The position numbers and the translations under genes were made by a program. DNA of 64,000 nt from Squalus acanthias (taxonomy: Eukaryota): the NCBI GenBank assembly GCA_030390025.1, contig CM059429.1:34162001-34226000 (forward strand), given 5' to 3'. Positions within the stretch are counted from its first letter, which is position 1, and each line of letters starts with the position of its first letter. Below the pieces are notes generated by a model. The model ran no database searches, was not told where the DNA came from, and saw only the letters and a program-made list of their open reading frames with translations. Shown in pieces: positions 229-47,392 of this stretch.

Positions 229-310
229 TCTGCAGGAAGCTTGGAGGGAGGTGGTGCCGTACAGGCTAATGGGGAAAATCCTCATCCAGTGCCAGTCGTC
301 ATCCGACCAG
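229..310 (+). CDS. EIF4G1: eIF4G1 exon ([27 protein letters not shown])
   Basis: ttcaacag acceptor, CAG|gtaagt donor; resembles human [21 protein letters not shown]; phase 1 matches next exon. Confidence 0.85.
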
Positions 311-3300
311 GTAAGTTGAAAAGGGTCAAGCAACTGTTCGGTGCAACATTTAAAGTAGATTGTGGCAACCATTTGTTTTCACACATTTAACCAAAAGAGG
401 TGGCGTATTTTCAATATGGATGAAAGATTACCAAACTGCGTAATTTTGGGTGGTAAGATTTGTTCTTGCAAACATTTTTCTAACTTGTAATTTTATTTAA
501 CTTTTGGCAATAATTCTAGGAACTATACTCCTAACTTATTTAGACTTGATATACACAAATGGGTATTGCTGTCATTTCATGTTGGGGGACACCTGGTGAT
601 ACTATTCCTTCCAAGAAATTATACCCTGGTCAGTCATGATCTCCCATTACCCTCCACATACCTCCAACCTTGAAGTGTGCCATGTCTCAGTCTGGGCTTA
701 TTTTACTGCCATTTAGTGATTTCTCTACAATTTTGATGCATTGGGAAGAGTTTACCATTGTTAATTTTGCAAGGTTCTTGTGCCATTTTTATCAATGTTA
801 TGTAGAACACTAGCTCACTGCAGCCAACTGTAGTTGGGTTGAGTCTACTTTGGCTATAGGACAGATACCAGTTCCTGTGCTTTTATAGTTGAGTGTCACA
901 GATGTTCCTAGTCACTGACTTGGCACAACACCTGTTGAATCTGTCTTCTCTGGTCGCATGACTTTTTGAAGTGCGAAGCCTGTTTGAAATTCAGCACAAA
1001 GGCTCAATGCCGCCAACTCATTTGCTGGAAGGCGATCCTGGCTACAGCAATGTCAAACCTCGATGCTTCTCAGCATAGAGACAAGTTGGCTGCAGAAGCT
1101 CTAAACAGTGGCTCTAAACAGTGGCTCAAATGGGAGTGGAGAAAGTGCCCAGGTTACTATGGCTCCATAACGTATATAATTAGACTCAAGCTACCTCAAC
1201 ACTGTTTTGGCGACTAGGTTAGGACTTGTGATTGTAGACCCACATCCATCCTGTAGTCCTCCATGTTGTTTCTCCATGATGCTCTGATAGTCACAGTTTT
1301 GCGTTACATAATCTTGAAGGTATTTAATGCTGCTGATATTAAGTATTCCTTTTTTTGTTTGTTTTAATAGATAAGCCAAAGTCTCCTGCAGCGGTAACTA
1401 AACCAGTAGAGGAACCGAACAAACCCGAGAAATCTATTACACCTGAAATTGTGGAAAGCAAATCTGAAATTAACACTAAACTAACAGACTCTGAGGAAGT
1501 GCTGCAAACTCCGGTCACTGAGCCAGATGACACTACAACCACTGTAGTCTCTTGTGACGTGGATGTGACTGTGACAGATTCTCTACCACCTGATCATAAT
1601 GATGAAATGAACCCTTTGGCAGAACCTGTTTCTTTGCCACCTGCAGCTACAGAAATGCAGAAAAGCGAAACAGAGGAGGTACAAGAGCTACAAAAAGAGG
1701 AGGAGGTGATTGCAGATGAATCTAGCTCAAAAGACTTGACAGTGGAAAGTAATGGTGTTATGCCAGTACAAGCAGATGAACCTAGTCAAGAATCTGAACC
1801 TCCACTTGAACCTCCACTTGAATCTCCACTTGAACCTCCACTTGAATCTCCACTTGAATCTCCACTTGAACCTCCACTTGAATCTCCTCTTGAACCTCCT
1901 CTTGAATCTCCTCTTGAACCTCCTCTTGAACCTCCACTTGAACCTCCACTTGAACCTCCTCTTGAACCTCCTCTTGAACCTCCTCTTGAACCTCCTCTTG
2001 AATCTCCTCTTGAACCTCCTCTTGAACCTCCTCTTGAATCTCCTCTTGAATCTCCTCTTGAACCTCTACTCGAACCTCTACTGGAAACTGTGATGGATTC
2101 ACCCATTGCACAACCTGAAGAACTGAAGTTGACTAATGGTTTGGAGCTTTCAACAGAGCAGGATTCAGAAGTTTCAGAAGCTCAGCAGGAATCTGACATC
2201 AGCCCAATTTCTGAACCTGAAGCAGCAAAAGTTGAAGAAAGTGCTGTAGTCTTAGTACCTTCTGAGGAGAAGGAGGAAGAGGACATTGTAGAAGTCCAAT
2301 CACAGGATGCCTCACCAACAACAGCTACTTTATCCCAGACTATTGACAATCCTATGCAAGGTATTAGTAATAGATGTTGGTTAACAGTTCAGGTACAGAG
2401 GTCATTGTAGTGACCAGTGTTGTACAGGTTTAGATATTGGAGTTGATGAACTACTGTGGGGTTTTTTCCTAGAATTCAACAGGTAAGTATAGCAGATAGC
2501 TTATTTTGAAAATTGATGGGAACAATTATGTAACATTTTATATCAAAATAACACTTTGCATTGCTTGATTGTGTATAATTTATATAATGGTCAGCTTTGA
2601 GGTTCTAATGTATAAGCCTACTAACACTTTGTGTTCAGTGCCTCTTAATTTTAATCCAAAATTTAGTGGATTTGTCGAAGTGGTTGTGCTGCTTGGTCAA
2701 CTAAATCTTATAATTTGTAATGTAAAGAAATGCTGATAAAGTCAAAATGAAAGCGGCCAAAACCGGTTTACTGTTTAATTTAAAATAGCTTTATAAAATT
2801 TCTCTAATGTAACATCGCTAAAAACGGTAATGAGGTTTGCAATTTTGACGGTGGATTGACTGAGATGATGGCACCTGCATGTCCTTCATCTGTGGACATG
2901 ATGAGCCCAATATAATAACTAGTCATTCTAGATGATTCTAGTGGGGAAAACTGATTTGGCTGGGTTAGTTTTAATATTTGAAAGACGCTTGTTTGGTATG
3001 TAAATGTATATTTCAAATGTACATAGTTTTTTTTGAACTTTTAAAAAAGGTTCTGTTTGGGTACAGTAATGGGAAGTGTAAAGAGTATTTTTTAAATTTG
3101 GAATGTGGCAAGGCTATATTTATTGCCCATGTCTAGTTGCCCCAAGATGGTGGTGGGACTTCTCCTTGAACCGCTGCAGTCTTTCTGGTGTGGTAGTAGG
3201 GAATACTAGGTTATTGACTCAACAATGATGAAGGGATGGTGGCCGACTGGGAGGTAATGGTGTTCTCACATTACCACTCTTGTCCTTCTCAGTGGTAGAG

Positions 3301-6300: not shown

Positions 6301-9300
6301 GCAGATTCACCAGAATGATGCTGGGCATTTGAAGGTGAAATAGAGGACAGATTGCATTAACTTGGCTTGTATTCCCTTGAGTTTAGTAGCTTGAGGGATG
6401 AGTTAATTGAGGTGTTTAAAATGTATTTTGCTATCGTATATCTGTTTAAAATGATGATGGGTTCGATAGAGTAGATACTGCTAAACTATTTCCTCTGGAG
6501 GTGGAATCCAGAACAAGGGGGCACAATCTTAATTAGAGTTGGGCCATTCAGGGGTGAAATCATACAAAGGGTATTGGAAATTTGGAGCTCTCTTCCCCAA
6601 AAGGCTGTGGATGCTGGGTCAATTGAAATGTTCAAGACTGAGATTGATGGATTTTTGTTAGGCAAGGGTATGAAGGGATATGGATCAAAGGTGGGTAAAT
6701 GTAGTTGAGGTACAGATCTAATTGAATAGCAGAACAGGCTCGAGGGGCTGAATGGCCAACCCCTGTTCCTCTGTTTCTAAGCATATATGTGACATTTATT
6801 GATTCAATGTCACTTATGGTTAATTGCCACGTACGATTTTAAACAGTGGCATTACTTAGTTTTGAGATCCCAGTAAAAACTACAGGACTTCCTTACCTCC
6901 TTCAGTTTTTAGTTCCTCCTACAGTCTCTCCACCTTGGGTAATCACTTTATTTACCCGGTCTTCTCTTTTCAGCCTGCATATTTGGGTCTCCCTCACTGT
7001 GATTTCTAATTTTTTGTTTCTGTTCATACAACTTGTCATCTATTCTTGCATCATGGTTGCCATTCTCTGTGCCTGTGCGCTACTAACATTTACGGAGCAA
7101 TGCACGGAGGGAAACATCGTTATAATACCATTACTGTGGGGTGGTGTCTGGTTGGGAAACCCGTGCACATATACTTAAACATAGAACGCAGGTTACTGGT
7201 CTTCAACTAATGAAAATAGCTGGAGTGCTTGATTTTGCTCGACAGAAATTGTCAAGCAGATGTGCTAAATGTTATTCAAAGTTAGAACAGACTTTGCAGC
7301 AGCAATTGTAATAGTGCAAAACAAAAATGATGCAGTGCTGCATTTTGGCTGAAGTCTTCCTATGTCACTACTGTGGTGCACTGGCTTTATACTGTACATG
7401 ATATGGCACCAAAGGTGCAGTATAATGGCAGCACCGCTATCAATTTAAAAAATACCTATATGCATATATCATTTTCTTCCCCATTTGGTAGCTAAATTAT
7501 AATTTTAAGAAGCTCACAAAATTTACTTGTAATCTTGGCAACTTCATGAACAGAAGCTTAATTGTTCTAGTGTGGTTTGTTAACTTTCTGTTTACAGTAA
7601 GGTTAAGGCAATGGTCATGCTGATCCTTGATGGGCTTTACCTGTGCCAATTTATAGGACTGATCCTATTACTGGTGTGGGATAGTTTCTGAATGTTGTCA
7701 GTTCACTGTGAACATCTCCTTTTAGCTGCAGCTGTATCTGTGCCAAAGAAGAAGAGGAAGATGAAGGACTTGAACAAGAAAGAAGCAGTTGGAGATCTAC
7801 TAGATGCTTTCAAAGAGGTGCTAGTTTTACTTCATAAAGTAGTTAAGCACAAGTTAGAAATGCTAATTACAGTAAATGATTGGGTATGATATCTATTGGC
7901 AGAGCCATTTGGTCGTACCTATATTTTGTACATTTAAAAATTGCAATGAAGACCAAGATTCTGCATTTTTTTTTTTGCTGGAAGTGTGTTATTGAAGCTT
8001 TAGTCATTTTTTCATGGAAACTGATATTTGAGATAAGTTCAAGATTTAAAGCAAATGCTGATCTAAATGATCTTAAAAGATCTACAGATTAGTAACTGAG
8101 GTCTCAGCAACGCGGGCTAAGGACCATTTGCACCTTGCTTCCCTTTAACATAACCTGTGGCCCTCTAGTCTAGATGCTTTATGTGCCCCCTATCTCATTT
8201 CATAGCCTGTCGGGCAGTGGAATGCTGACCATGCTGGGATTTAGTTCTATTTCTCCTTCTTTCCTTGCATTTCAGTATGAGATTGCTTGATTCAGCAAGT
8301 GAAAAATACCCGTTGAAGTAGAGCTATTTATTGGAACTATTGTTCCATTTAGTGTGTTTTATATACTATGAGACAAGCATTTTTCCTAACAAAATCACTA
8401 AAAACCCCAAGTTATTTCCTTGGTGGTGAAGGTGAATTACTGTAGGAAGCCTTTTTCTGGGGCATATCTCACTTTGTTCTTTCCCATCAGCTAGGGAAAA
8501 AAAACACATTCCCAGTTATTTTAATTTTCCAGTTCCAGCAAACCGTTTCAAATTATTTCCCAACAAGTTTCTGGTTTGTATCCTGGAAGTTTATTTTTTG
8601 CAGTTTTAGTCTATAGTTTTTGCTATTCGTATTTTGGGAAGCAACCTTCTGTTGGCTGCCTTGATCTGATTGATAAGGTACCATCGCAGTACATGTATGT
8701 CACACATCCTTAAGTGGCACCTGGTTTCAATTACTGTAAAGAACAGCCAGCATCATGATAGCCAGCCTACTGCTTGGGGCATGTTTGTAGCAGGTACCAT
8801 GCTGCTGATCAAACGTTTGTTTTTGGCTACTTTTCTAATCATTAGTAATGTGTTCCACATGCGTGCTGCCAAATATTTAGAAGTCTCTTAAATTATGGTA
8901 ATAGTAATTCAGAATTATCTGAAACTGTAAATTAGGAATTGCATACTCAAAAAAATATTTTTCTGCAGTCTCAAGTAAAAGAACCTGCAGCCGAGACTGA
9001 CGCCCAGCCTGCTGCTGTATCTGTCGAAGTAAATGAAACAATTGCTCCCACCCGTGACGAGCCAGAGGAAACCTGGGAAGAGAAGGAGGATAAACAAGAC
9101 GTAGAGAACATCAAGCCAGATGGAATTAAATTGTTAGATCAGAAATATCAATACAAAGAAGGTGAGCCTAGCAGCAGTTTGTTTAAAAAAAAAAAAAAAA
9201 ATCTGAAACTAAAACCATGTGAATCACAGAAACTTATGGGTTTGTGACCTAATCTTGGAGAGGAGAGTGGGAGCGAAGACATTTTTTTTAGATGTTAAAA

Positions 9301-12300
9301 AGTAATTATAAAACGGGCAGAACTTTTTTCCAGCAGTTACATAATGGAATGGCAAAGCATCTGAAGAGAAATCTTTTCAGTTATCAAAGACTTGGAGCCC
9401 AGAAAGTATTGGGCCGTTTTAATTGTACTGTGTAATTAACCACATCTTTTTCACTGGTTCCCTACCCAAGTTGTGTATGCAGCATAATTTGATTATGAAT
9501 TATAATGTGTTTCTAATACAAGTCAAACTGCCGTAACTTGTCTTTCATGCATATAATTTGGTCATTTGCCACTAGGTGGGGATAAACTGATGTAGATCTA
9601 GATGTTTAGCCCAACACTTGTTAAAAATGTTGCAAGTACTTCTGATAGTGTTCTGTTTAGTTTTGTTTCAGTTCTTTGTATTGAATATTCTGAGCCAAAA
9701 ACATTGTATTTCTAATTTATTTAAACTCCATGTACAAATAGGAAATAATTTATTTTCGTTTTGGTGGGGGTGTGGGCTGGAATATATGAGAGGAGAGAAA
9801 CTCCTATGATGGCTATGAATGTCCTGGGCAGATTATCATGTATTCTGATACCATTGGTTCATTCTCTACTATTGTCATCCTGTTTCCTATGTAAGAAAAG
9901 TTTGAGCATTTTAATGCTGCTTACTACCAGGTTTATTTTTTTGTCTTGTAGGACAGTTTATTTTGAAGTTCATCAAGTTTTTGGTTTTATAGTTTTAAAA
10001 TCTTGCAGTTTTCTACCAGCACCATTTTGACTTATTGTCTTTACCCGTCAGAGTAAGTCCGCGCTCTTAGTCATGTTGTCATCTGTCACCTGCCATTGTT
10101 GAGAGTGGTTGTTGGAGAACAAATAAATGTGGCTCGATGATGATGCTCCATGGCCCAGATTGTCTTGACCTCACTTGAATTTGGATGCGAGTAATGTAAG
10201 CCGTTTGAAGTTATGCACTGCAAGGAATTTTAAGTTCCTCTGTCCTTCAAGACAGTTATTTACCCTTTTCTCTAAAGTGAGGTTTGTGCTTATGGTGGAT
10301 CCACTTGATTCTGGTGGGTACGTAGTAAGGCCGTGGACAATCTCCATCCTGTTCTCATGCCATTCAGTTCTGAACGTGACACTTATGTTTTACTCACCAC
10401 CATAAAGGAATTTATGTTTTACTCACCACCATAAAGGAATTTATATAGTTAACATGCATATCACTGGTCTAACAGTTTGAGCTTTTTCGGGACAAGACTA
10501 GGTAAACTCATTATGATCACCAAAGGTCCTGAGGATGAAAGTACAATTTTCTAATCTGTTATACACTACCCTATGTTTGAGGATCCTCCATTTAATTTTA
10601 TTTCCCAGTTTCCCTAAAACACGAGTAAAAATTCTTGAGTAATTCCATATAATAAAAAACAGAATTTGGCCGTAAACTGATGAATTTGAAGTAATCTGGC
10701 CCCAAAACACTAAATTAATTTAAAAATCCCAGAATCCTATGTAATAATGGAGCATAAAACTGGCCAGCCCATTATGAAACAGCGATTGCTCTCTGGCAGG
10801 GCAAGACCTACCCGGGATCTCACTAAATGAGGGGTGTGGTTATTTCTTGGGTCAGTGTGGTACTAGTTTGGTGTATTTTCTATTTTACATGGAGGTTAAA
10901 TGAATGTTGCATTAGCTATTACAGCTGTGGTATGCCCCCTCCTTTTGATAGAAGTTTGGCCTCCATGTACAAAGCTCCTTTCTAGCCACCCCAGGTTCTA
11001 GTTCTGATCTGGTGAGGCTTGCAGATGGTTTTGTTGCTTTGGAACTCAGTTCTGACATAAGCAGGTACCGTGGTCTAGGACCTTACAGCAACCTGCAGAT
11101 TGTGACTTGACTTTTGCGGGGTGGGATGAATTTCTTTGTTCTGGGTGATTTTTCTCTCATGATAATTCCCAAATGTGTATGGAGGTTGTACAATCTTTAA
11201 GGAAGTTGATGACTATACTAATGAAGATACGTAACATTACTATGTAGTGGTATGAAGCTGAAACGTATATAAAATTTAAATTTAACGATTCTAATTTGCT
11301 CCCATTAGAAAATTGGAAACCGCTTAATCCTGAGGACAAGAAGAAGTATGACCGTGAATTTCTCTTGGGGTTCCAGTTCATCTTTGCTAGCATGCAGAAA
11401 CCTGAAGGCCTACCAATAATTAGTGACGTTGTGTTGGATAAGGTATGCGGTGCACTTGTTAATCAGGTAGTAGTTTTAATAGTAAGCATTTTACAATAGC
11501 AAACTGAAGCAATGTTTAATAAAAAAAAAAATTCCATTGCTTTTGATTCACTTAAATTTACATTGCTAAAATAGACTTATTTTTAATTCATAGTATCTGG
11601 GCCTAGATGGCATTTGTTGTCTTGCTCCAGAGCAATGCAATGTGAGTAAATATTTTGAGTTAATGGATGAACAGGAGAAAACCACAGAATTTGAGTTTAA
11701 AATCTATCTACTTCCATTTATGGGTACAGATAAATCTGTTGTCTAGTTGGTGATAAGTATACCAATTATGATCCTTTTGGATTTTTATGCACAGCCACTT
11801 CAGTTGAAATGACCATTAAAGCTTCATTCTTAATGACTCCGTTGCTTTCTATCCTATTGTGAAAAGCAGTTATGCTTTACCTCAAAAGAGCCTTTGTATG
11901 TATATATTTGCACTTGTTGTTGAGTCCCAAAGCCAATAACTCCTAAATTCTTTTTGAGGCAAATTTATTGAGTTTTATTTCTGTTGGCTGGAGCACAGCT
12001 GCAGGCAGAATTTCTCCAGTCAAGTAGTGTTTAGATCTATCCCGATCAGTAATACTGGCACCCATTTTCAAGCTCTTCCCAGTGATGCGCAACACATGCC
12101 AGCATTGTCTCCAGGTATCAGCATTTGTAGAAGCGTGGAATGTGCTCCCCACTCAGCCAAAAGTCTGTTTGGACTATTGCTCAAAAGCAATCTTGGTAAA
12201 GACCCCTTTAGCCTTGATACAGAGATACTGAGTTATGCTTTCTTTAAGAAACGCACTTTCAAGCCAGAAAGAAAATGAAGAATAGGTAAGGACTATGCCC

Positions 12301-21300: not shown

Positions 21301-24300
21301 CTAACTATTATAGTATTTTGTCCAGGAGTTATATAGAACAGATTAAAAGTGTGTGATTAGTACTGCATTAATGAGTGCAATGTATAAAAATGGAACCCAA
21401 GTCCAGGAGTAAGCATGAAAACTAAATAAATTCCAGATTGCTGACAGTTGCCCAACTTAGTTCTGCTTTGTGCTTGCATTAATTTAGTACCAGATCAGTG
21501 ATTTCCAGGTCTAATGCTTTTCTGCTTGAATGTTGTAGAAATGAAATGAGCCTTGTCTTTTATTAATCTAATTATCCACTAACACTGAATTATATTTGTG
21601 ATTTGGGGTGCGTTTGGGTTGGGGGGGGGGGGGGGGGGGGGGAAGGAGGCGTTTTGGGAAGGGGGTGCAACTATGCAGTCAAAGGCATCATAACTCCCTT
21701 TGCAGTGTTTGGCAGCTGGCTATGGCCAGGTCAGTTGTCTTGGGTCTGGCCACAGACAGGCTGAGCTGATGGTGCACTTGAACCATTACTTACTTTTATT
21801 ATTTAGGAATTGCTTTCATGCTGGTTCCTCTCCTATAGGTCCTGGGATGATTGCAGTCTTGCAAATAGAACCTTGAGGTAACAGTGCGAGTGCAGTCCCT
21901 TTAAATTGCATTGTGACTTCCAAACCTTGTGCGAATGCACTTCTGTTTTGTATATTTGGCATCAAAGGAATCTCGTTATATTTTGGAAGTGTGATGTGGC
22001 ATGTAAATTAAAACCATACCACTGAAACAGTATTGAGCCTCAAACAAATCTTGCATTCTGAAAAGAACTGAGCNNNNNNNNNNNNNNNNNNNNNNNNNNN
22101 NNNNNNNNNNNNNNNNNNNNNNNNNNNNNNNNNNNNNNNNNNNNNNNNNNNNNNNNNNNNNNNNNNNNNNNNNNNNNNNNNNNNNNNNNNNNNNNNNNNN
22201 NNNGGAACTAGACTATTTTAAAAATCTTTTTTAAAGAGGTCTCCTTTGTTTTGTATTCTGGTTTAGTCCTTGTGGGGGTGGTGGGGGTCTACCATTTCAT
22301 GGGTCTTTGCTTCTTTTGGCTACCTGTGGCCTGGTTTGGAACTACCTGGTTAGGAGGATCCACTACTGGCTGGCTATTGCATACTCAGCTGGTACTGGTC
22401 CAAAGCATCAGCTCCCATTGAAGTCAACTGGAACTGGTTCAAAATGACCCACAGCACATTACCAGAGAGACTTTTTAATGGTGGCCGACCCACCGGTCTA
22501 TGAACCAAACAATATAATGCAAAACTAAAATCATGTCTAAAAGATGAGCGGTCATGTTGATTTTTTTTCCTCTCCTACTTACTTGATAAGTTACTGGAGG
22601 GAAAAAAAACTTGCTGGATTACAAACATTTTAAAAATAGAATGCGCTTAATCTGTACAGTTTGGATGATACGTTGGTTCACAACTGCAGTTTATGCAATT
22701 TACTAGTTTACTTTGTGTGATTTGCTCTGAAGCCTCTGAGCAGTGTGTTCTGAAGATGCACTGAAGGTGCACAGGAGTAGATGGGGATGAGTCCCCGTCG
22801 CCCCCTGCCCCGTTCCACTTCCACAGTGGGGAAATGTCTGGCTTTTGCTGAGGTCAGGAACTTGAGAATTGTGAGCCTGTGACCTACCATTTTTAAGATT
22901 TTCTTTGACCACAAATTGCTTAAGGAAAAAAATACATGATCATGAAGTTAATTACATTCCATCCCCTCCCCTCCCCACCAGCCCCCCCCCAACTGCCAAA
23001 CTGTCGTGATTAGGCAGCGTGAAGGATTGTTGCTTCCTTCCACAATGTGCAAGTAATAGATTGCAGTATAATACTTATAAGCTGAATAGTGCACTAATGC
23101 AGAAACTGGTTTTCACTAATGATCAGTTGTAACACTGATATTCCTATTTGTGTGATCTCTCTCATTTTTATGCATGCATCAAAGCAGTATTAATACTTGG
23201 GGAACCTTGCTGTTTTGTTACATAGGAGCTGTTCCGAAAGGTGCGCAGTATTTTGAACAAACTGACACCCCAGATGTTCCAGCAGTTGATGAAACAGGTG
23301 GCAGAATTGACAATTGACAATGAAGAGCGGTTAAAGGGAGTTATTGACCTGGTCTTTGAAAAAGCCATTTCTGAGCCAAACTTCTCTGTTGCCTATGCCA
23401 ACATGTGCCGCTGTCTCACAACAGTAAGTACCCTTTAACCCCTGTTGATATTTTGGAATGATTCCAGCAGTGAATTGTGGTAACTTCAGGAATTTTGAAA
23501 GCACTGAAATAGCATACCTGCTAGCTGAAATGTGTACAGTAATTGAAAAATATTAAACTGCTGTTCTTCCATAAGATTCATTTATTAGCTGTGAAGAGTA
23601 TATCCTATCTGAGGTATTCAGACATTTTTGGGCCATAGATAATCAATCTATGGTAGATTTGAGGATTTGAAAAATTGAATAGCACATTATAGGGTAGCAA
23701 GAAGTCTGAGCTGCCTGTTGAGCATGCATTGAAATAATGAGGTTGCTTTAGGACTATGGACCCAAGTTATAGATCCATATAGATCAGGCTGTAGAACAGT
23801 ATAATATATTTCCATTTGTTGCTAAAATATACCAGTTATGCAACAGAAGACCAAATAGATTGATATTTTAATACGCGATCACCTTGTTATCTGTGTTGCA
23901 CATTATGTGTGCGTGTAAAGTGTAAGAAGCAGTCTAAAGTGAATTTGGAGTTAAAAGCCATGGATATGATAGTGTACACAGTATACTTTGGAAAGTTGGT
24001 TTCCTACTCTCTTCCCCTCAATTATTAATTTTTAAAAGGGTAACTTCTTGCTCCTGTACTTTTAACAGCTGAAAGTTCCAATACCAGACAAGCCTGGAGC
24101 AACTGTAAATTTCCGGAAGTTGCTATTAAACCGATGTCAGAAGGAATTTGAAAAAGACAAAGACGATGATGCTGTAATAGACAAAAAACAGAAGGAAATT
24201 GATGCTGCCGCTATGGTAATTAACTTAATTTCTTACAAAATGATCTAAAATAAATTGAGCTTTTTAGGGTAAAATTGAATGAGTTTGAGATGCTTTCATG

Positions 24301-27300
24301 TATATATTTTTATATTGCATCATGTTTTCACATTTTCTTTTTCCATTTGTGGTATGTTTTAACTGTTAATCTATAAAGGAACGTTGAGGAAGTAGTCTCC
24401 TAATATTCAGTGGAATTATTCTGTCCTTTTCTCACCCTGATGCTGAGTTTTCAGAACTAGAACAATTTTTAAGTGAATCTGCTCATTCCAGTATATATTT
24501 AAACAGCAAAATGCAAACATGTCATTCAAATTGGGGGTGTGTATATAAGGTAATTGATTTTGTAAGCTGTTTTTAAACTGACCAATATGGCGAAGTAGTA
24601 GCTGTGCACAGTCATTATGGTGCAAAGTATAGTTTGGTATTTAATAGGATAATGTGCAGTCTTTGTAAACGTTTGCTGAACAAAAAAAATGTAATTAACT
24701 ATAGGTTTGCTCTTAATCGTACATTCTATGGTTTGTCACTTCACGCTTGAAAAGATTATCGTTCCTGGATAATGGGTAATTATTGTGTGACCAAAATGCA
24801 TATTCATTGAAGCTTCTCAAGTTAACTGCCTAATGTGTTTCATTGATGGAGTTTTCTGCCACGTTAACCATGTTTTGAGTTCTCGTGGAATTGGTAATAA
24901 AATTCTTTTTAAGGGAACAATAAATATGCAGCATCACATTGTCATTCTCGCTCTTTACGCTTGTATAGTTCTTTAGCTATTGAGTCACTTTATTTTATAA
25001 ATGTATTCAGAATTTCCAGTTTTCTCTGTAAATGCTTAATTTGTGCTGTAACCATGTAGCAGACTGGTGTTCACAAACGTTTGCTACTTTGGATCGTGTA
25101 GATGCATATAATGGAGCCTCGGGCCGCATGCAGAATCTTAAAGGAGGCCATTCAGCCCATCGTGCCTGTGTCGGCTCTTTGAAAGAGCTATCCAATTAGT
25201 CCCACTCCCCTACTCTTTCCCCGTAGCAATGTAGTTTTTTCCTTTTCAAGTATATATCCAATTCCCTTTTGAAAGTTACTATTCAATCTGCTTCCTCCAC
25301 CCTTTCAGGCAGATCATAACTCGCCGCGTTTATAAAAAAAAATTCTCATGTTGCCTCTGGTTCTTTTGCCAATCACCTTAAATCTGTGCCCCCTAGTTAT
25401 TGACGCTTGAGCCATTGGAAACCATTTCTCTTTATTTACTCTATCTAAACCATTGATTTTAAACACCTATCAATCACCTCTTGGCCTTCTGTGCTCTAAG
25501 GAGAACAACCCCAGCTTCTCCAGTCTACCCAGAAGCATCCTGCAAACTGAGCTCCTGTGGGACAAGGCAGGCATCAGCCTGCAGACCAAGCTCAAAGTAT
25601 ACAGGGCAGTCGTTCTGATGACCCTGCTTTTTATGCCTGTGAAACTTGGACAACATATGTACAACACATTAAGAAACGGAATCATTTTCACCTAAGCTGC
25701 CTGAGGTGACTAATGAAGATCAGATAACAAGACAGGATCCATGACACTAAAGTTCTTAAAGCTGACATGCCAATCATAGATGCTGTGATCATCTAGGCAC
25801 AGCTACGCCTTCCGCTCATGTGGTGTGAATGTTTGCTGAACGAACCCCAAAGGAGAGCTTTTATGACACATTGACAACTGGGGAGTGATCTCATGATGGA
25901 CAGCAAAAGGGATGTAAAGACTGCTTAAAAGTGGCTTCGAAACAGTACATAATAGATGTCCGTAAATGGAAACGGCTTGCTCAAGATAAGGCATAGTGAG
26001 AAACCGTCCATGAAGGCACCTCCTATGAGGCTTATAGTATTGCTGATGCTGCATATAAACGCCAGCTGAGGAAGTCTCGCGTGAAAAATCACGATCCGCA
26101 GCTGGTATCTTTTATCTGGGTTCCACTGATCACTGTAGATGCTCGTTCCTAGCAAAAATTGGTCTCGCCAGTCATCAAAGACCTTACTGCAGAAAATGAA
26201 TGATATTTTGGCTATTGTCTTCGATGTTGAAGGATGGATGATCACATTTAGTATGCAGGAGTTTTTTTGTTGACTTGATACGATTAATACAAAATAAAGG
26301 AGATGGAGCACAGAAGGTACTCTTGTAAATATTGACTACTGGAGGCACAGTTTCAGGTGTCGGGTCAGGATCACCCAAAGTAAATTTAATTTCTGTGCAA
26401 GTTTTATCTCTTACCCCATACAAATTGATTAGTTTCCTCCCATCCTCTTGGATATAGTTCCACAGACAGTGGACACCTTCTGGTCCCTTACCCAAGATGT
26501 CATTGTTTCATGTGTGAGCCTTGTTGTGAAAGCTGGCAAATATCTGACTGGACATTGCAGCTAAGTCAAATCCGGTCCTAACTTGGTATTCACTCAACAT
26601 TTCCAGTAGGGGCAGCTTCATAGGGAGTGGAACCCCTGTCTGGCTTTCTCCCACCTGACCCAGGAATACTCTTGCCAATTGTAACATCCCTATTATTGCC
26701 TTAGTTGAATTCAGCTAACTTGGCACTGTCTGGACAACAAACCTGGGACTTTCCTTGTCTGTATGGTTGAAATGGAGGCTTTACATCTGAACTATCAGGA
26801 TGGCCTTGCTAATAAGTCATTCATATCCAGGATTGATGTTGAATTTAGCATTCTATCATGTATCCTTGTAAGCACTGAAACATTTTTGATTTTTAAATGA
26901 ATAGCTAATGCATTTGTATTAACATCACTTTGGTGACTGAGTTTAAAAGTAAAGCATTTATATAGTACCTTTAATGACCTCCAGGCATCCCAAAGTGCTT
27001 TACAGCCAATTAAAGTACTTTTGAAGTGTTGTAATGTAGGAAACGTGGCAGCCAATTTTCACACTACAAGCTCCCACAAACAGCAATGCGATAATGACCA
27101 GATGTTCTGCTTTACTATTTGTTGAGGAATATGTATTGACCAGAGCACTAGGAGAACTCCTCTACTCTTCAGAATAGTGCCGTGGGATCTTTTACGTCCA
27201 CCTGAGGGGGCAGACGGGGCCTCAGTTTAGCGTCTTATCTGAAAGAGCACCTCCGACAGTGCAGTACTCCCTCAGTTGGTGATGTCATTACTCCCTCAGT

Positions 27301-30300
27301 ACTGCACTAAAATGTCAACCTGGATTATGTGCTCAAGTCTCTGGAGTGGGCCTTGAACCCACACATTTCTGACTCGGGTGAGAGTGCTACCACTGAGCCA
27401 CAGCTGACAGAGTATAATCCTACTTGGCAGAGGGATTTCACTGTAGGACTACATTTGTCTGAAATCACACTGGAATATAACCACGATGGAATCATTCATG
27501 AATTATCTATGTTTATAGCTTACATAAAATCTTTCCAGCTTTTGTAGACTTGTTTTGTTGGTACTGGAAATGTGGATACTATATAATGTATGTATAAAAG
27601 TAGCAATCAGGTTAGCGAGGCCATAAAAAAATTCAAACCAAGCACTGGGGTTCATTTCTAGAGGAGTAGAATTGAAAAGCACAGAAGTTATGTTAAACTA
27701 ATATAAAACCTTGATTCGACCACACTTGAAGTATTGTGCACAGTTCTGATCTCCATATTACAAAAAGGATATAGAGGCACTGGAGGAGGTGTAAAAAAGA
27801 TTTACAAGAATGATTGTTATAACCTCAGTTCTGGTATCAGGAAAGACTGAACAGGCTAAGGCTTTTTTCTCTAAGGCAGAGATCTGACCTAACACCTAAT
27901 TATGAAGGGATTTGATATGGTAGAGATGTTTCCACTTGAGTCCAAAATTAGGTGTCATAAAGTTAAGAGAGTCACTAATTCAATAAGGAATTCAGGAGAG
28001 ACATCTTTACCCAGGAGAGTGGTTAGATTGTGGAACTTGCTACCACCATGGAATAGTTGAGGCAAATAGCATGGATGCATTTAAGGGGAAGCTAGATAAG
28101 TACACGAGGGGGGAAAAAGGTATAGACGGATATGCTGATGGGGTTAGCTGAAGTAGGGTGGGAAGAGGCTTGTGTGGAGCAGGAACAGACCAGTTGGGCT
28201 GAATGGCCTGTTTCTGTGCTGTAAATTCTACAGTGGAATAGAGCCTGGTTCTGCTTCAGGAGTTATTGTTTGTCGTTACTATTGGTGATTGAAGGTTATC
28301 TCAAAGTTGAATCCTGTAGACTTAGTCCAGCAAATGTTTCGTTCCAGCCTCACTAAAAGAATTTAAACTAAAATACTGCTGTGTATGTATATACTGTTAT
28401 GAATAAGCAATATTTTGCAATGTGTTCTGTAACTTACTGAGCTTCAGTGGTACTGTCCACAGGAGTGCACTGAGCCATTATTTTATGTAAGAAAATCTTC
28501 GTCATATTGTGTTTTCATTTGAGCTAAATTTTGTACTTTGTCATGCTGGTACCATCATAACCCCATATTGCAACATATGCTATGTATGTCTCAGCATCAT
28601 GTACTTTCTATTAATTAATTAAACTTAATTAGGGGGGACTAGTTGATGTCATTAATGCACCCACTGTTAGTTTCTTGCAAGCCCATTCCTTTATAAAGAC
28701 CCACAATTGTCTATAAAGTACGCACAGATCTAATTTTCAGTTAGTCATTTATGTAGAACAAGGCTGTAGCAGAACTATTGATTCCAAATTTTCTTCCCAA
28801 CACAGTAGAAATGTAAAATAGACTCCCACCACTAGCAGTAAATCTTCCCTTAAAATAAATCCTTTTTGGAATTGCTTTGTGTGCTGCTGTGAACATTGAA
28901 ATAGCATCTGTGGAATCCAACTGGTTCTCTCTTGTCCCTCTCTTCGCTCCTTCCCATTCAACGTGCTGACTCTTGCTGGGGTACAATTCCACGGGCACTG
29001 ACAGTCATTCAGTATCTCACCTATGTAGCCATTTGTCATGTTGGAGAAATGTCTCCATCTTGAGTTTCTAAATTTAAATGTTCTAGATTTTGAATTAAAC
29101 CTGTAACGCTTGAATTCTATTCATTTCAGTCTGAGGAGAAAACACGTCTCCAAGAAGAGCTAAAGAACGCCAGAGACAAAGCCAGGCGACGATCACTAGG
29201 CAATATCAAATTCATTGGTGAACTCTTCAAACTGAAAATGTTAACAGAGCCAATTATGCATGACTGTATAGTGAAACTGCTAAAGAATCATGATGAGGAG
29301 TCACTTGAATGCCTATGTAGGCTATTAACCACAATAGGCAAAGACTTGGATTTTGAAAAAGCCAAAGTAAGTTTAAAAATTACTTGCTAAAGTAGTCTAT
29401 ACAATAGTGATAGCTTGGTATTGATATACTTGATTTTTCTTTGGAAAATGTAACATTCACTCCTTGTATCTTGCCTATAGCCTAGGATGGATCAATATTT
29501 CAACCAGATGGAAAAAATTATTAAAGAAAGGAAAACTTCGTCTCGGATTCGTTTTATGGTGCAGGATGTAATCGATCTTCGACAAGTGAGTTCAATTGAC
29601 TTAAGTTGGTAATTGACTTGTATCTGTGTAAATGTTGAAATACAAAAGTGCCACAGAAATAAAGTTAGAATTTTTTTGTTTTGCCAGCGTTGTGTATATA
29701 CATAACCACTTTTATATTTCTGGAAATGTAAACTTTCTTCATTGCAGATATTATTCGTAGTATTTTGAAAAAAGTTGAATGCTTGGTCAGAAGTAACCAA
29801 ATATTTAACAAAGCCCAGCACTTAAATTACTCATTGCTAAAATGTGATGTGAAATTGCTATCAGGGGATATATCCAGTATATAGTGTTGCATCATGTGCC
29901 TGTTAAAGCCACAGCGCAACCATGTTGGCCTTTCAGCACTGGCTAATGTCAACCATTTAATGTTCCCAATTCTGAGCTTTTGTGCAAACAGCTGAAAAAA
30001 CAGTCATGGAACAAGCTACAAAAATTTCAGTACAGTAATATTATTGCCAAACTGTTAGTATTTAAGCCAACATGTGGTATTTTTCCATTCTGTGTTGTCA
30101 GATGTGATTCGGACTAAACTATAGACGTTAGATATTTCGGATGAGGGGAAAAATTAAGTTTTATTCTTGGGATAAAAAGATCTCAATGACTTTGTTTGTT
30201 TGAATTCTGAAATAAACCATTATGTGTTGATTTCCAGAATAACTGGGTGCCACGAAGAGGTGATTCGGGACCCAAGACATTAGAACAGATTCACAGAGAA

Positions 30301-45300: not shown

Positions 45301-47392
45301 TGATTAAGGAGAAAGCTGAGAACCAAAGAATATTTGACTGGATTGAAGTAAGTTTATTACATTATGATAATTAGTTTTAAAAGTTATCAGTTGGGGGAGG
45401 AGGAGAGATCTGTGTGGTGAGACTGATTGATAAAAATTAATATGGGGATGAATTAAAAAAATAAATCTGCAATGAATCTTGGCTTAAAATTATCTAACTA
45501 TCAGAATTATAAAGAATATTCAAATTTTAATTAGCTTTTGTAAATACTGCTCTGTATTGTAAATACAAATTATATAATGCTTTTTGGGATTCATAAATGC
45601 AGTATGTATAATCATGCAAAATAGTGGCGTGTTGGATGTGCAATAGGTACTGTATATCAAAATTTTTACTTTAAGTGAAATCTTTCTGTTACAGGCTAAC
45701 CTTGATGAAAAGCAAATGGTTTCACCACTGTTCATTAGAGCATTAATGAAATCTATTTGCCATTCTGCTGTTGTATGTAAGTACAGTTTTGATTTTTAAC
45801 ATCTAATTTATGGAGAAATGTCCACTGATATTTGTGTCAACATTTTCTTTTTCTTTTTCCTTACATCTTTCTCTGCCCATTTTAGTTGAAAGCCCTATTC
45901 GAGTGGATGTAGAAGTCATCCAAAACAGAGTAAAAGTCCTAACAAAATACCTGAATTCTGACCCCCAGCGTGAACTGCAAGCACTCTACGCCCTTCAGGC
46001 CTTAATGGCCATATTAGAGCAGCCACCAAGTAAGTTCACTGTTCTTTGTTTTGCAACTCTTGATTGACCTTCTGCAGTCTTCTCTTTCTCCATGCAATCG
46101 CGGAGGATAGAGCTGAAAAACAGTTTGCAAACTTCCATTAATAAGGTTTTATGGGCATCTGCTCGGTAGTTATGGTAGCTCAGGATGTCGGGGCCGCTTC
46201 GGGTTTCCTTCCGTCCCTGTGGGTAAACACCTGGTCACTTTTTAAATCTCATGGCAGCACGTTTGAGATTCCCAACTTGGCATGCAAGAAATTTTACATG
46301 GGGATCTGCATCCTAAATCAATCCACATGCCTTCAAGTTTGGTTTTGTTAAGTCATTGTCAGATCTATGCTACTCTTGTACCTATGCCATAAGTCTACTT
46401 TTTGTAATTGCATGAATGTGTATTACTTTAGTTACTTAAAATAACTCCATTCCAGGCAGCATGTAGTTGTGATTGATGTGACAGATTCTACCTGACTGGC
46501 TGCTGGGAGTTGATAGAGTTTAGAAGATCTGTTTCCCCTCCCCTGGCCAAATCCTTGTGCACCAACTGTTTCCTACCATAAAAAATGACACCTGCACTTT
46601 CATATATCTTTGAGCAAAGGTTTGAATGGTCACTTTGAAGGATAGAGCGTACGGCGAAAGATGGCAAGTGTAAAAAGCTTCAGATGTTCAAAATATTTTC
46701 ATTTCACGTCACAAAAATGATGGGCATTTCATGGAATTATAGATACTATTTCTGGAAGGCTTTTCTTTAACCATATATTCTGCCCTAGTCTGACTCTCCT
46801 GGTCTACCCTTAATTGTTCTTTTGACTCTGTGTAACCTGAAGCCGTTGTTTACTGTAGATGCTTGTGCCCTTGGTGTTTGGGGTCTGCAAGCAATTTTTT
46901 TTCCTGAAAAGTTTGGGGCATGTTTTCCTTCCTTTGCTAATTTTAGCAATAATAGTATTGCCTGGCACTTTTAGCTGAATTTAGTGAACAGATGAAAATA
47001 CAGTGCATGGGTGCAATCACAAATGGGCATTGTATACTCATTGTACAAGCCTGCACTAAGGTCTTGTCGCAATATCGGCTAAGTTCAATACATTGCATTT
47101 TGCTGCAGTTCCTTTGGATACATGTGCTCTTAATTAAGTATTGGCACAATTCAGAAATTGTGTACTGCTCAAACTGAAAGGTAGACATTTATTTTCTATA
47201 TTCTTTGCAGACTTACTAAGGACATTTTTCGATGTTTTGTATGACGAGGATGTTATATCTGAAGAAGCCTTTTACAAATGGGAGTCCAGTAAAGACCCAG
47301 CTGAGCAACAAGGAAAAGGAGTAGCTTTGAAATCTGTGACAGCTTTCTTCACTTGGTTAAGAGAAGCTGAAGAAGAATCAGAAGGCAATTAG
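229..47392 (+). CDS. EIF4G1: Eukaryotic translation initiation factor 4 gamma 1, 5'-partial multi-exon gene span (25 coding exons in window)
   Basis: The exons below join with consistent phases into 4425 nt (1474 aa + TAG). [22 protein letters not shown] and [23 protein letters not shown] match eIF4G1 rather than eIF4G3 (YDREFLLDFQFMPAC). Confidence 0.96.
1371..2360 (+). CDS. EIF4G1: eIF4G1 large acidic/Pro-rich exon containing the (E[P/S]PL)24 repeat
   Basis: Pyrimidine tract + ttaatag acceptor, CAAG|gtatta donor; 990 nt open, within ORF 1355-2410; phase 1-1. Confidence 0.88.
1796..2083 (+). repeat. Coding minisatellite, 24 x 12 bp GAA(C/T)CTCC(A/T)CTT
   Basis: 288 nt = 24 units, counted directly; the last two are degenerate (EPLL). 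Confidence 0.97.
3095..4250 (-). mobile_element. Old LINE 3' fragment (probably CR1/L2 group) interrupted by a MITE
   Basis: ggctatatttattgcccat..cttgaaccgctgcagt and, after the MITE, ttgctctgtcctggatgg resemble a common shark LINE end (from recall). Confidence 0.45.
3399..4123. mobile_element. PIF/Harbinger-like MITE
   Basis: Imperfect TIRs GGCCCGTATTTTCCGATC / GATCGGAATATCCGGCCC, ATT on both sides, GC-rich arms with AT-rich core. Confidence 0.8.
5000..6780 (+). mobile_element. Decayed CR1 LINE (RT remnants + 3' UTR)
   Basis: Frameshifted QHGFVKG and [10 protein letters not shown] remnants; 3' end ggctcgaggggctgaatggcc..tgtttct. Confidence 0.9.
7726..7817 (+). CDS. EIF4G1: eIF4G1 exon ([30 protein letters not shown])
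   Basis: Matches eIF4[27 protein letters not shown]; tttag acceptor (second in-frame cag 6 nt downstream), GAG|gtgc donor. Confidence 0.93.
8969..9161 (+). CDS. EIF4G1: eIF4G1 exon ([24 protein letters not shown])
   Basis: ctgcag acceptor, G|gtgag donor; ETWEEKEDK and QKYQYK resemble eIF4G1. Confidence 0.92.
11309..11442 (+). CDS. EIF4G1: eIF4G1 exon with eIF4E-binding motif YxxxxL-phi (YDREFLL)
   Basis: [44 protein letters not shown]; cattag / gtatgc. Confidence 0.96.
13170..13612 (+). mobile_element. CR1 LINE 3' fragment
   Basis: ttctttacccagagagtagttag..gaatggcctgtttctgtgctgta; similar copies at 27610-28230 and 60170-60470. Confidence 0.88.
13617..15200 (-). mobile_element. Decayed CR1 LINE fragment
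   Basis: Minus [24 protein letters not shown]; 3' tail at 13617. Confidence 0.88.
16755..16871 (+). CDS. EIF4G1: eIF4G1 exon ([39 protein letters not shown])
   Basis: ttttacag / gtaagt; 117 nt, phase 0-0. Confidence 0.93.
16975..19300 (+). mobile_element. Young 5'-truncated CR1 LINE with uninterrupted ORF2 (endonuclease end + reverse transcriptase)
   Basis: ORF 16918-19197: [45 protein letters not shown]; short 3' UTR and (TTTCTATG)n tail. Confidence 0.97.
20542..20715 (+). CDS. EIF4G1: eIF4G1 exon ([31 protein letters not shown])
   Basis: ttttcaag / gtagcc; 174 nt; conserved RRSQQG-KEPRKII and AWKP. Confidence 0.92.
22074..22203. other. Assembly gap (130 N)
   Basis: Run of N; exon phases on either side are compatible. 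Confidence 0.99.
23226..23423 (+). CDS. EIF4G1: eIF4G1 MIF4G exon ([28 protein letters not shown])
   Basis: catag / gtaagt; 198 nt; MIF4G signature. Confidence 0.96.
24069..24215 (+). CDS. EIF4G1: eIF4G1 MIF4G exon ([22 protein letters not shown])
   Basis: ttaacag / gtaatt; 147 nt. Confidence 0.95.
25135..25530 (-). mobile_element. CR1 LINE 3' fragment
   Basis: Minus [18 protein letters not shown]; resembles 13617-14030. Confidence 0.85.
25530..26245 (+). mobile_element. RTE-clade LINE 3' fragment (decayed)
   Basis: [24 protein letters not shown] (frameshifted) is typical of the RTE ORF C-terminal region. Confidence 0.7.
26470..26765 (-). mobile_element. Old SINE-like repeat, same family as 61340-61700
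   Basis: Reverse complement shares aggaaagtcccaggttt..agttagctga..ttccactcc..ctgctggaaa blocks with the 61340 copy. Confidence 0.55.
26945..27408 (-). mobile_element. DeuSINE (SacSINE1-like) tRNA-headed SINE
   Basis: Minus strand has a tRNA-like head (gtggctcagtggtagcact..gggttcaag), Deu-like core (ttggctgccacgtttcctacattacaac) and L2-like tail. Confidence 0.8.
27610..28230 (+). mobile_element. CR1 LINE 3' fragment
   Basis: [10 protein letters not shown] remnant and CR1 3' UTR. Confidence 0.87.
29130..29366 (+). CDS. EIF4G1: eIF4G1 MIF4G exon (..[35 protein letters not shown])
   Basis: tttcag / gtaagt; 237 nt. Confidence 0.96.
29481..29585 (+). CDS. EIF4G1: eIF4G1 MIF4G exon ([35 protein letters not shown])
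   Basis: ctatag / gtgagt; 105 nt. Confidence 0.96.
30238..30400 (+). CDS. EIF4G1: eIF4G1 exon ([26 protein letters not shown]..)
   Basis: tttccag / gtaagt; 163 nt. Confidence 0.94.
31178..31281 (+). CDS. EIF4G1: eIF4G1 exon ([34 protein letters not shown])
   Basis: ccgtag / gtaagg; [19 protein letters not shown] conserved. Confidence 0.94.
31384..31489 (+). CDS. EIF4G1: eIF4G1 exon ([35 protein letters not shown])
   Basis: aaatag / gtaatt; W.KGSSGGSG motif. Confidence 0.92.
32189..32921. mobile_element. PIF/Harbinger-like MITE related to 3399-4123 (opposite orientation)
   Basis: 16-bp TIR GGCCCAAAAATTAGTG / CACGAATTTTTGGGCC (1 mismatch), ATT target duplication. Confidence 0.85.
33065..33605 (-). 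mobile_element. CR1 LINE 3' fragment
   Basis: Minus [28 protein letters not shown]. Confidence 0.88.
33671..33773 (+). CDS. EIF4G1: eIF4G1 exon ([24 protein letters not shown]), ending at a GC donor
   Basis: acttag acceptor; donor CAG|gcaagt gives the phase 2 needed by the next exon. Confidence 0.9.
34511..34839 (+). CDS. EIF4G1: eIF4G1 R/D/E/S-rich exon ([28 protein letters not shown])
   Basis: caacag / gtaagt; 329 nt; KRS.SKEV and ASMT resemble eIF4G1. Confidence 0.92.
36343..36650. mobile_element. Partial Harbinger-like MITE
   Basis: Starts GGCCCTGAAATTGC; shares ctgggatcacgtggg with the 3399 element; right TIR degenerate. Confidence 0.55.
37040..37275. mobile_element. MITE remnant with internal 49-bp palindrome
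   Basis: CpG-rich; ends GCAAATTCTGCCCC+aat like the other MITE termini; left end not found. Confidence 0.55.
37517..37635 (+). CDS. EIF4G1: eIF4G1 exon, start of MA3 domain ([24 protein letters not shown])
   Basis: taccag / gtaagc; 119 nt. Confidence 0.95.
38245..38417 (+). CDS. EIF4G1: eIF4G1 MA3 exon ([23 protein letters not shown]..)
   Basis: ctttag / gtaagt; 173 nt. Confidence 0.95.
39158..39283 (+). CDS. EIF4G1: eIF4G1 MA3 exon ([29 protein letters not shown])
   Basis: ccacag / gtaacg; 126 nt. Confidence 0.95.
39386..40407 (+). mobile_element. CR1 LINE 3' ~1 kb, closely related to the 16975 copy
   Basis: ORF 39502-40335 is near-identical in protein to the CR1 ORF2 C-terminus; TTCTATG tail. 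Confidence 0.95.
40415..40670 (+). mobile_element. 5'-truncated V-SINE (HE1-like)
   Basis: V-domain gtgtggagtttgcacattctccccgtgtctgcgtgggtttcctccgggtgctccggtttcctcccac; internal ~45-bp tandem duplication. Confidence 0.85.
40671..40786 (+). mobile_element. Second copy of the CR1 3' end (duplicate of 40290-40406)
   Basis: Direct near-identity over ~115 bp. Confidence 0.88.
40825..41230 (-). mobile_element. DeuSINE-like copy (decayed)
   Basis: Collinear with 26945-27408. Confidence 0.72.
41420..41735 (+). mobile_element. DeuSINE-like copy (decayed)
   Basis: ggttgtgggttcaaa head; ttgctgtctgtgggattttgctatgcgcaaag Deu-like core. Confidence 0.65.
42240..42321 (+). CDS. EIF4G1: eIF4G1 exon ([27 protein letters not shown])
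   Basis: tgacag / gtaagt; 82 nt. Confidence 0.93.
42432..42530 (+). CDS. EIF4G1: eIF4G1 exon ([33 protein letters not shown])
   Basis: ttgcag / gtattt; 99 nt. Confidence 0.94.
43020..45120 (-). mobile_element. Decayed CR1 LINE
   Basis: Minus ORFs [44 protein letters not shown]. Confidence 0.93.
43589..43749. mobile_element. hAT-like MITE nested in CR1
   Basis: Ends CAGTGCTCCTTCTAA / TTAAAGGGAACGTTG; 8-bp TSD gtagagtc / gtagaatc. Confidence 0.75.
45204..45347 (+). CDS. EIF4G1: eIF4G1 exon ([15 protein letters not shown])
   Basis: taatag / gtaagt; 144 nt. Confidence 0.93.
45695..45776 (+). CDS. EIF4G1: eIF4G1 W2 exon ([27 protein letters not shown])
   Basis: ttacag / gtaagt; 82 nt. Confidence 0.93.
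45886..46029 (+). CDS. EIF4G1: eIF4G1 W2 exon (..[19 protein letters not shown])
   Basis: ttttag / gtaagt; 144 nt. Confidence 0.94.
47211..47392 (+). CDS. EIF4G1: eIF4G1 last coding exon, W2 domain C-terminus (..[20 protein letters not shown])
   Basis: ttgcag acceptor; aromatic/acidic boxes [11 protein letters not shown] and WLREAEEES; TAG at 47390-47392. Confidence 0.96.

What the first reader, a model, noticed from the sequence alone, without database searches (positions are those of the whole stretch)
1796..2083. 24-unit in-frame minisatellite inserts a 96-aa (E-P/S-P-L)n tract into eIF4G1
Seen: 24 tandem 12-bp units with few variant positions, kept in frame in a coding exon. CCA variants cluster 5' and CCT variants 3', which suggests recent slippage or unequal crossover. 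Known: this is the poorly conserved disordered linker between the PABP-binding and eIF4E-binding sites, and I recall no such array in mammalian eIF4G1. Inference: a lineage-specific, possibly length-polymorphic acidic polyproline spacer with eight Ser-Pro sites, able to change closed-loop geometry or proline-directed phosphorylation. The repeated PP motifs may also make its translation eIF5A-sensitive.
Basis: partly seen in the sequence, partly recalled or inferred. Interest (0 to 1): 0.7.

Follow-up and report, generated by a model that had tools for sequence, protein, structure and literature searches.

The report
Repeat-expansion hot spot in eIF4G1 linker
In this shark a 12-base repeat has grown to 24 in-frame copies inside the floppy tether of the translation scaffold eIF4G1, and unrelated repeats have lengthened the same tether in sawsharks, catsharks, a chimaera, several bony fishes and a frog, so it is most likely a tolerated slippage expansion rather than a new functional module.

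Summary
The array is real: 22 regular 12-bp units plus 2 degenerate ones (1796-2083), in frame in a 990-nt exon of eIF4G1. Spliced contigs include the exon and run into the array from both sides. The exact count of 24 was not checked by spanning reads. The array is not unique to this shark. Twelve of 15 named elasmobranchs keep a 2-7-unit seed at this site, and a close relative's contig shows 7 units. A sawshark has 42 units and two catsharks have 313-371 aa of an 11-mer. A chimaera has an unrelated 7-mer array just upstream. Across vertebrates 12 of 106 linkers carry arrays, against 0 in the three other flexible regions. The arrays share no chemistry: the sawshark and chimaera arrays have no Ser-Pro, and the chimaera's has no Pro-Pro. 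Best reading: a likely near-neutral, probably still polymorphic coding minisatellite in a tether with a length floor near 410 aa and a loose ceiling. A shared phospho-module is not supported. A longer predicted PEST segment and 14 EPP pause motifs are untested side effects. My ten literature searches found no report of the pattern.

The parts
1796..2059 (+). 22 regular 12-bp units, 14 EPPL and 8 ESPL; only unit positions 4 (C/T, Pro/Ser) and 9 (A/T, silent) vary
2060..2083 (+). two degenerate terminal units (EPLL), likely the older edge of the array
   Evidence: 'older' is inferred
1371..2360 (+). 990-nt eIF4G1 linker exon that holds the array; AG/GT, same phase at both ends
   Evidence: spliced contigs join 310 to 1371 and 2360 to 7726; no Pfam family; no residue with pLDDT 70 or more
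1733..2125 (+). 131-aa stretch without Lys, Arg or His that includes the array; predicted PEST segment, score about +16
   Evidence: my re-implementation of the ePESTfind formula from memory
229..310 (+). upstream eIF4G1 exon; the PABP-binding exon lies 4.7 kb before the window (L010:5214-5306)
7726..7817 (+). next exon (basic stretch of the linker)
8969..9161 (+). last linker exon
11309..11442 (+). exon with the eIF4E-binding motif
   Evidence: PDB 5t46_B E=1e-22; PF21140 at 26.6 bits, cut-off 27
23226..29585 (+). MIF4G-domain exons (approximate span)
47210..47389 (+). last coding exon, W2 domain

Best explanation
This is a transcribed, in-frame coding minisatellite in the PABP-to-eIF4E linker exon of a shark eIF4G1, which likely grew by slippage or unequal exchange from an ancestral 2-7-unit Glu-x-Pro-Leu seed and likely persists because this disordered tether tolerates extra acidic or neutral residues. 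Shown: the array, its exon, its inclusion in spliced RNA, the short seed in most elasmobranchs, and unrelated arrays in the same linker in other vertebrates. Inferred: the mutational route (local duplication, which spread one silent variant through neighbouring units), near-neutrality, and present-day allelic variation. The linker behaves as a tether with a length floor near 410 aa and a loose ceiling. The array adds about 82 aa (494 against 412-447 aa) and is predicted to enlarge the tether by about 10%.
For: Seed at this site: 2-7 tetrapeptides in 12 of 15 named elasmobranchs. Organism C, 98.3% identical in the flanks, has 84 nt = 7 units in one spliced contig. Large arrays at the same site: Pristiophorus 42 tetrapeptides (17 EPPR, 16 EPPL, no ESPL) and two Scyliorhinus with 313 and 371 aa of an 11-mer. 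The catsharks nest among unexpanded galeomorphs in a quick tree. Callorhinchus has about 45 copies of an unrelated 7-mer upstream and about one unit here. Survey: arrays in 12 of 106 linkers, against 0 of 107, 0 of 106 and 0 of 102 in the other three flexible regions; the linker holds 43% of those residues; p about 5e-4 if counted as 9 independent unit families. Array chemistry varies: Pro 7-47%, net charge per residue -0.17 to +0.07, Ser-Pro 0-2. Three silent third-codon positions are invariant in all 22 units, which fits DNA-level recency or homogenisation rather than old protein-level selection. Contig stops in X2 and X4 differ from those predicted for this allele.
Against: No population data and no functional test. 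Neutrality is inferred from chemical diversity, which a selected 'any long spacer' role would also produce. The concentration of arrays in the linker may partly reflect that it is encoded by one large exon. The survey drew on the best 120 of 1256 hits plus cluster members, and related species are not independent. Only one other squalomorph is named, and the window-Pristiophorus node has SH-aLRT 89 in an unfinished (quick) tree, so one versus two squalomorph expansions is open. The 7-unit count comes from a short-read contig that could have collapsed units. The unit number 24 rests on the assembly alone.
Confidence: 0.7

Rival explanations
1. The array lengthens a degradation signal. It merges into a 131-aa segment without basic residues that is predicted to be a PEST motif and would shorten eIF4G1 half-life or sharpen its loss under oxidative stress.
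For: The N-terminal third of mammalian eIF4GI holds computer-predicted PEST motifs and is sufficient for proteasomal degradation (PMC6449437, passages read). The window's segment is the longest in the 21 linkers scored (131 aa, score 16.0; next longest 97 aa); PEST residues total 202 against 73-148 in the 11 other chondrichthyans scored.
Against: The sawshark, catshark and chimaera arrays contain Arg or Lys in nearly every unit and do not form such a segment. Mouse, Xenopus, plover and coelacanth have 203-235 PEST residues without any array. The score is my re-implementation. In that paper the motifs are predictions and I saw no test of single motifs.
Confidence: 0.08
2. Selection favours a longer tether in some lineages, changing cap-to-poly(A) coupling or condensate behaviour; any acidic or neutral repeat will do.
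For: Arrays recur in this region only. Linker length is narrow in most species (median 440, quartiles 424-466) although the sequence is poorly conserved. Net charge per residue stays at -0.09 to -0.16 in all 21 linkers scored. Tether dimensions are selected in adenovirus E1A (10.1101/2021.05.14.444182, abstract only).
Against: Close relatives differ threefold in unit number (7 against 24). Lengths of 412 to 782 aa occur within chondrichthyans. The predicted size change here is only 1.10-1.12-fold. Duplicating local acidic sequence keeps the charge without selection.
Confidence: 0.1
3. The array is a regulatory module: eight new Ser-Pro phosphosites, or 14 EPP pause motifs that tie eIF4G1 synthesis to eIF5A.
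For: 8 SP and 14 PP in the array; the linker has 12 SP against 3-6 in other chondrichthyans and 17 PP against 2-6 in unexpanded ones. EPP is listed among eIF5A-dependent pause motifs in yeast (PMC5499558, passages read). Sawshark and catshark linkers also gain PP (41, 30, 24).
Against: No PPP in the array. The sawshark array has no Ser-Pro, and the chimaera array has neither Ser-Pro nor Pro-Pro. Pro and Ser units are in random order. No basic residue follows the Ser-Pro sites, which CDK-type kinases prefer (recalled). Mouse has 13 SP and plover 15 PP in the linker without arrays.
Confidence: 0.07
4. The length is an assembly artefact, or the array is spliced out of the mRNA.
For: No spanning read was seen. 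An older S. torazame gene model (P0005) lacks the whole array that the newer one (P0004) has, so such arrays do trouble assemblies and annotation.
Against: Four unit types form a non-trivial order without indels. DNA run X9 stops 34 nt into the array, exactly where this allele predicts, though X9 may be related to the assembly's source. Spliced contigs enter the array by 87 and 29 nt from the 5' side and 32 nt from the 3' side. The array has no AG or GT. No joint leaves the exon's 5' half in 3 of 3 spliced runs. Orthologues carry longer arrays.
Confidence: 0.05

Closest known systems
Coding VNTRs / in-frame minisatellites of vertebrate proteins (O'Dushlaine et al. 2005, PMC1273636, abstract and passages; bioRxiv 10.1101/2021.01.19.427332, search listing only)
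   Same: In-frame tandem units with few variant sites inside one exon; about 1 in 20 human proteins is estimated to carry a coding repeat polymorphism, enriched in protein-binding proteins.
   Different: Here the host is a core translation-initiation scaffold, and the same linker has expanded repeatedly across vertebrates with unrelated units. Length polymorphism is only indirectly indicated.
Vertebrate eIF4G1 N-terminal third (review PMC12709193 and Alard et al. 2019 PMC6449437, passages read)
   Same: PABP site, long unstructured linker, eIF4E motif, MIF4G and W2 domains are present; the linker is acidic, proline-rich and PEST-like.
   Different: The linker is 494 aa, against 427 in mouse and 412-447 in unexpanded elasmobranchs. 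None of the 12 mammalian proteins surveyed carries an array. The passages I read mention no repeats in this linker.
eIF4G1 arrays of Pristiophorus japonicus, Scyliorhinus spp. and Callorhinchus milii (database proteins P0002, P0003, P0004, P0171)
   Same: Same linker; the sawshark and catshark arrays occupy the same site and use Glu/Pro/Leu-rich units.
   Different: Different unit length and chemistry: 8-mer with Arg, 11-mer with Ala and Arg, 7-mer with Lys and Val at another site. All are longer (168-371 aa) and contain basic residues.
Conformational buffering of disordered tethers, adenovirus E1A (10.1101/2021.05.14.444182, abstract only)
   Same: Two binding motifs joined by a hypervariable disordered linker whose typical length is fairly constant.
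   Different: The eIF4G1 linker nearly doubles in some species with no sign of compensation, so its upper size does not look finely tuned.

Membership tests
eIF4G1 (EIF4G1 orthologue) | PABP-binding motif upstream of the linker | tested here: met
   exon in L010:5214-5306 matches the sawshark protein at 89%; its 3' end matches the loose ends of the spliced contigs
eIF4G1 (EIF4G1 orthologue) | eIF4E-binding motif | tested here: met
   E=1e-22 to human eIF4G1 5t46_B; PF21140 just under its cut-off on the single exon
eIF4G1 (EIF4G1 orthologue) | MIF4G and W2 domains | tested here: met
   PF02854 and PF02020 above cut-off; MA3-region exons match by tblastn only
eIF4G1 (EIF4G1 orthologue) | eIF4G1 rather than eIF4G3 | tested here: met
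   7 of 9 linker hits are named eIF4G1/1a (one hypothetical, one unnamed). A second intron-bearing gene on C16 scores 71.9 against 62.1 bits for eIF4GII over eIF4G1 and has its KADD motif; the window has eIF4G1's KDDD. Two MIF4G exons of the window do not discriminate by score (115.6 v 114; 71.3 v 73 bits).
Coding minisatellite / VNTR | tandem units of more than 6 bp, in frame, in a spliced exon | tested here: met
Coding minisatellite / VNTR | unit number differs between related species | tested here: met
   2-7, 24 and 42 units
Coding minisatellite / VNTR | unit number differs between individuals | tested here: inconclusive
   contig stops of X2 (87 and 32 nt) and X4 (29 nt) do not fit this allele (34 and 63 nt), and both X2 stops abut the variable C/T site; this points to other alleles but gives no count, and X2 bears another organism label
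Polyproline tract (eIF5A-dependent) | three or more consecutive prolines | tested here: not met
   0 PPP, 14 PP; EPP itself is a pause motif in yeast
PEST degron | P/E/S/T-rich stretch between basic residues, score above 5 | tested here: met
   131 aa, score 16.0, own re-implementation
PEST degron | shortens protein half-life | not testable with these tools
   needs a reporter assay
Conserved proline-directed phospho-module | Ser/Thr-Pro sites kept in orthologous arrays | tested here: not met
   0 SP and 0 TP in the sawshark, S. canicula and chimaera arrays

The most novel reading that the evidence does not exclude
The eIF4G1 PABP-to-eIF4E linker is an evolvable tuning knob: repeat expansions recur there across vertebrates because length, degron content or eIF5A-sensitive pausing set eIF4G1 dose or closed-loop coupling, and this shark carries segregating length alleles that change global translation.
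Probability: 0.12. Interest if true: 0.7.

Novelty: new member of a known kind. Interest (0 to 1): 0.38.

Why it matters
The array alone is an ordinary coding minisatellite. The comparative pattern is the useful part: an essential initiation scaffold tolerates tethers of about 410 to 780 aa between its poly(A)-side and cap-side binding sites, made of at least nine unrelated unit families. That argues against a finely tuned closed-loop distance. It also supplies a ready series of natural linkers to test how tether length affects cap-poly(A) synergy and eIF4G1 turnover. In practice the locus is a candidate nuclear marker for these sharks and a trap for annotation: arrays here yield truncated models and probably false isoforms.

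Tried and rejected
A third homologue search for exon-sized fragments (residues 60-145, 180-576 aa) gave 0 hits among 51 candidates, so no further squalomorph arrays were obtained. No listed run is on record as RNA; RNA status rests on the GT..AG joint. The unit count could not be read from spanning reads: all runs laid were short-word contigs, and only the flanks were laid. RNA structure was rejected: z = -1.13, centroid unpaired. A transposon or dispersed-satellite origin of the unit was rejected: no other genomic site. Internal splicing-out was rejected: no AG or GT in the array. Other reading frames give low-complexity ORFs without support. The single-sequence fold has mean pLDDT 47.6; this fits disorder but is weak without an alignment, and no fold search was run. 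Zero singleton changes in 220 site-copies do not prove the array younger than the split from organism C (P=0.15). Contigs of organisms E and F stop 51 and 35 nt upstream of 2084: a weak hint of arrays, not counted. The careful tree did not finish; the quick tree is quoted. Searches ended in script errors; 44 was redone, and the last, skate part of 63 was dropped. Earlier scan findings by place and words gave nothing on eIF4G. Ten paper searches showed no paper on repeats in this linker; most subscription journals are not covered and no supplements were read.

Full report
Observation. The array is at 1796-2083 as stated: 22 units of GAAYCTCCWCTT (14 EPPL, 8 ESPL) and two degenerate EPLL units. 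TRF scores it 428 at period 12 with no indels; no other array in the window exceeds 3.3 copies. A two-unit pattern finds 21 overlapping hits in the whole genome, all here, and the 5' flank has one match. The silent A/T site is polar (runs test p=0.0005); the Pro/Ser site is randomly ordered (p=0.72). The other ten positions, three of them silent third positions, never vary.

The gene. The array lies in exon 1371-2360. Six exons from the PABP-binding exon (4.7 kb before the window) to the eIF4E-binding exon read without a stop and give a 494-aa linker. The eIF4E exon matches human eIF4G1, MIF4G and W2 pass Pfam cut-offs, and tblastn with the sawshark protein gives 23 ordered matches along 226-47389. 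A second intron-bearing gene on C16 has eIF4G3-type residues, so the window gene is eIF4G1, although two of its MIF4G exons do not discriminate by score. The nearest named protein is that of the sawshark Pristiophorus (94%; sister with SH-aLRT 89 in a quick tree), so the host is likely a squalomorph shark. A review calls this region a long, likely unstructured linker (PMC12709193, passages). It has no Pfam family and no confident fold.

Expression and reality. Contigs of runs X2, X4 and X15 skip the 1060-nt GT..AG intron and join 310 to 1371 (3 of 4 runs laid; the fourth, X9, is DNA-like and unspliced). In 4 of 4 runs the loose end after 2360 is the next exon. Spliced contigs run into the array from both sides, and the array has no AG or GT, so it is very likely in the mRNA. 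A 31-mer graph of this allele predicts contig stops 34 nt in from the 5' side and 63 nt from the 3' side. X9 stops at 34; it may be related to the assembly's source, though it differs at two intron positions. X4 stops at 29, and X2 at 87 and 32, both next to the variable C/T site. This suggests other alleles or a sister species' allele, but contig building can shift such stops and it gives no count. The number 24 itself was not checked by spanning reads.

Orthologues. Twelve of 15 named elasmobranchs have 2-7 tetrapeptides at this site. Organism C, 12 differences in 704 flank bases, reads through in one contig with 84 nt, that is 7 units (collapse not excluded). Pristiophorus has 42 tetrapeptides, mostly alternating EPPR and EPPL. 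Two Scyliorhinus species have 313 and 371 aa built on an 11-mer and nest among unexpanded galeomorphs. Callorhinchus has about one unit here but about 45 copies of an unrelated 7-mer a little upstream; its database isoforms differ by whole multiples of seven residues (242-312 aa), which may be length alleles mistaken for introns (inference).

Vertebrate survey. I took 108 proteins, one per named species with one species twice, from the hits, dropping unnamed entries, redundant isoforms and two fragments. One search listed only the best 120 of 1256 hits. Arrays (period 4-30, score 25 or more) occur in 12 of 106 linkers, and in 0 of 107 N-termini, 0 of 106 eIF4E-to-MIF4G stretches and 0 of 102 MIF4G-to-MA3 stretches; at score 15 the last region gains 2. 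The linker holds 43% of these residues; nine independent unit families all falling there has p about 5e-4 (the count of nine is my grouping). Besides the chondrichthyans they are in paddlefish, milkfish, shad, two catfishes, a cyprinid, fugu and the tailed frog. Linker length has median 440 and quartiles 424-466, and reaches 782. The few values under 410 (down to 342) are likely incomplete models, not checked one by one.

Mechanism. Shown: a short seed, repeated growth at this site and elsewhere in the linker, unrelated chemistry, inclusion in spliced RNA. Inferred: slippage or unequal exchange amplified the seed; a silent variant spread among neighbours, giving the polarity; selection sets a minimum tether length but tolerates large additions. 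The array adds about 82 aa and would enlarge the tether 1.10-1.12-fold by polymer scaling, against 1.36-1.47 for S. canicula and the chimaera (proline stiffness not modelled). I put this reading at 0.7. One large exon encodes most of the linker, which may itself favour arrays there.

Possible consequences. The mammalian eIF4G1 N-terminal third carries predicted PEST motifs and suffices for proteasomal turnover (PMC6449437, passages). The array creates the longest predicted PEST segment of 21 linkers scored, but the other arrays do not, and tetrapods reach the same total without arrays. EPP is an eIF5A-dependent pause motif in yeast (PMC5499558, passages; PMC4176338, passages on bacterial context effects), so 14 EPP could slow synthesis, but there is no PPP. 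Ser-Pro sites are not shared among arrays, and the linker's 12 sites match the 13 of mouse. These remain untested side effects.

Comparison and verdict. Coding repeat polymorphisms are common (about 1 in 20 human proteins; PMC1273636, abstract and passages). This is a new member of that kind. Ten searches of the open literature showed no report of repeat expansions in the eIF4G1 linker; coverage is partial and no supplements were read. The recurring pattern is more interesting than this single array, because it bears on whether the cap-to-poly(A) tether length is tuned. Interest 0.38.

Noticed in passing
G000, about 29 dispersed sites; examples L013-L018, L021-L026: A dispersed repeat family carries a decayed, intronless, internally deleted piece of eIF4G mRNA (eIF4E-binding exon to the first 34 codons of MIF4G). 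The copies share flanks at about 65-87% and have residues of the C16 eIF4G3-like paralogue, which suggests capture of a spliced mRNA fragment by a mobile element.
   Followed up: partly
L010:5214-5312: The PABP-binding exon ends in a non-canonical GC donor; the spliced contigs' loose ends match that exon end.
   Followed up: partly
window 16912-19194: 761-aa open frame with a reverse-transcriptase domain (PF00078) in an eIF4G1 intron, likely a young 5'-truncated LINE; a shorter related copy lies at 39472-40332.
   Followed up: no
window 59791-59946 and 61089-61262: Exons of an alkaline phosphatase gene (PF00245) downstream of eIF4G1 on the same strand.
   Followed up: no
proteins P0171-P0182 (Callorhinchus): Database isoforms differ by 2-10 whole 7-aa units inside the array, possibly length alleles annotated as introns.
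   Followed up: partly
proteins P0008, P0009, P0047, P0051-P0057 (skates): An Asp/Gly-rich tract in the same linker; linker length varies 431-447 aa among skate entries.
   Followed up: no
window 34461-34847: Degenerate Asp/Glu-Arg-Ser-rich short repeats in the MIF4G-to-MA3 exon, shared with other sharks and below the array threshold.
   Followed up: no
proteins P0005 and P0004 (S. torazame): The older gene model omits the whole array region that the newer one contains.
   Followed up: partly
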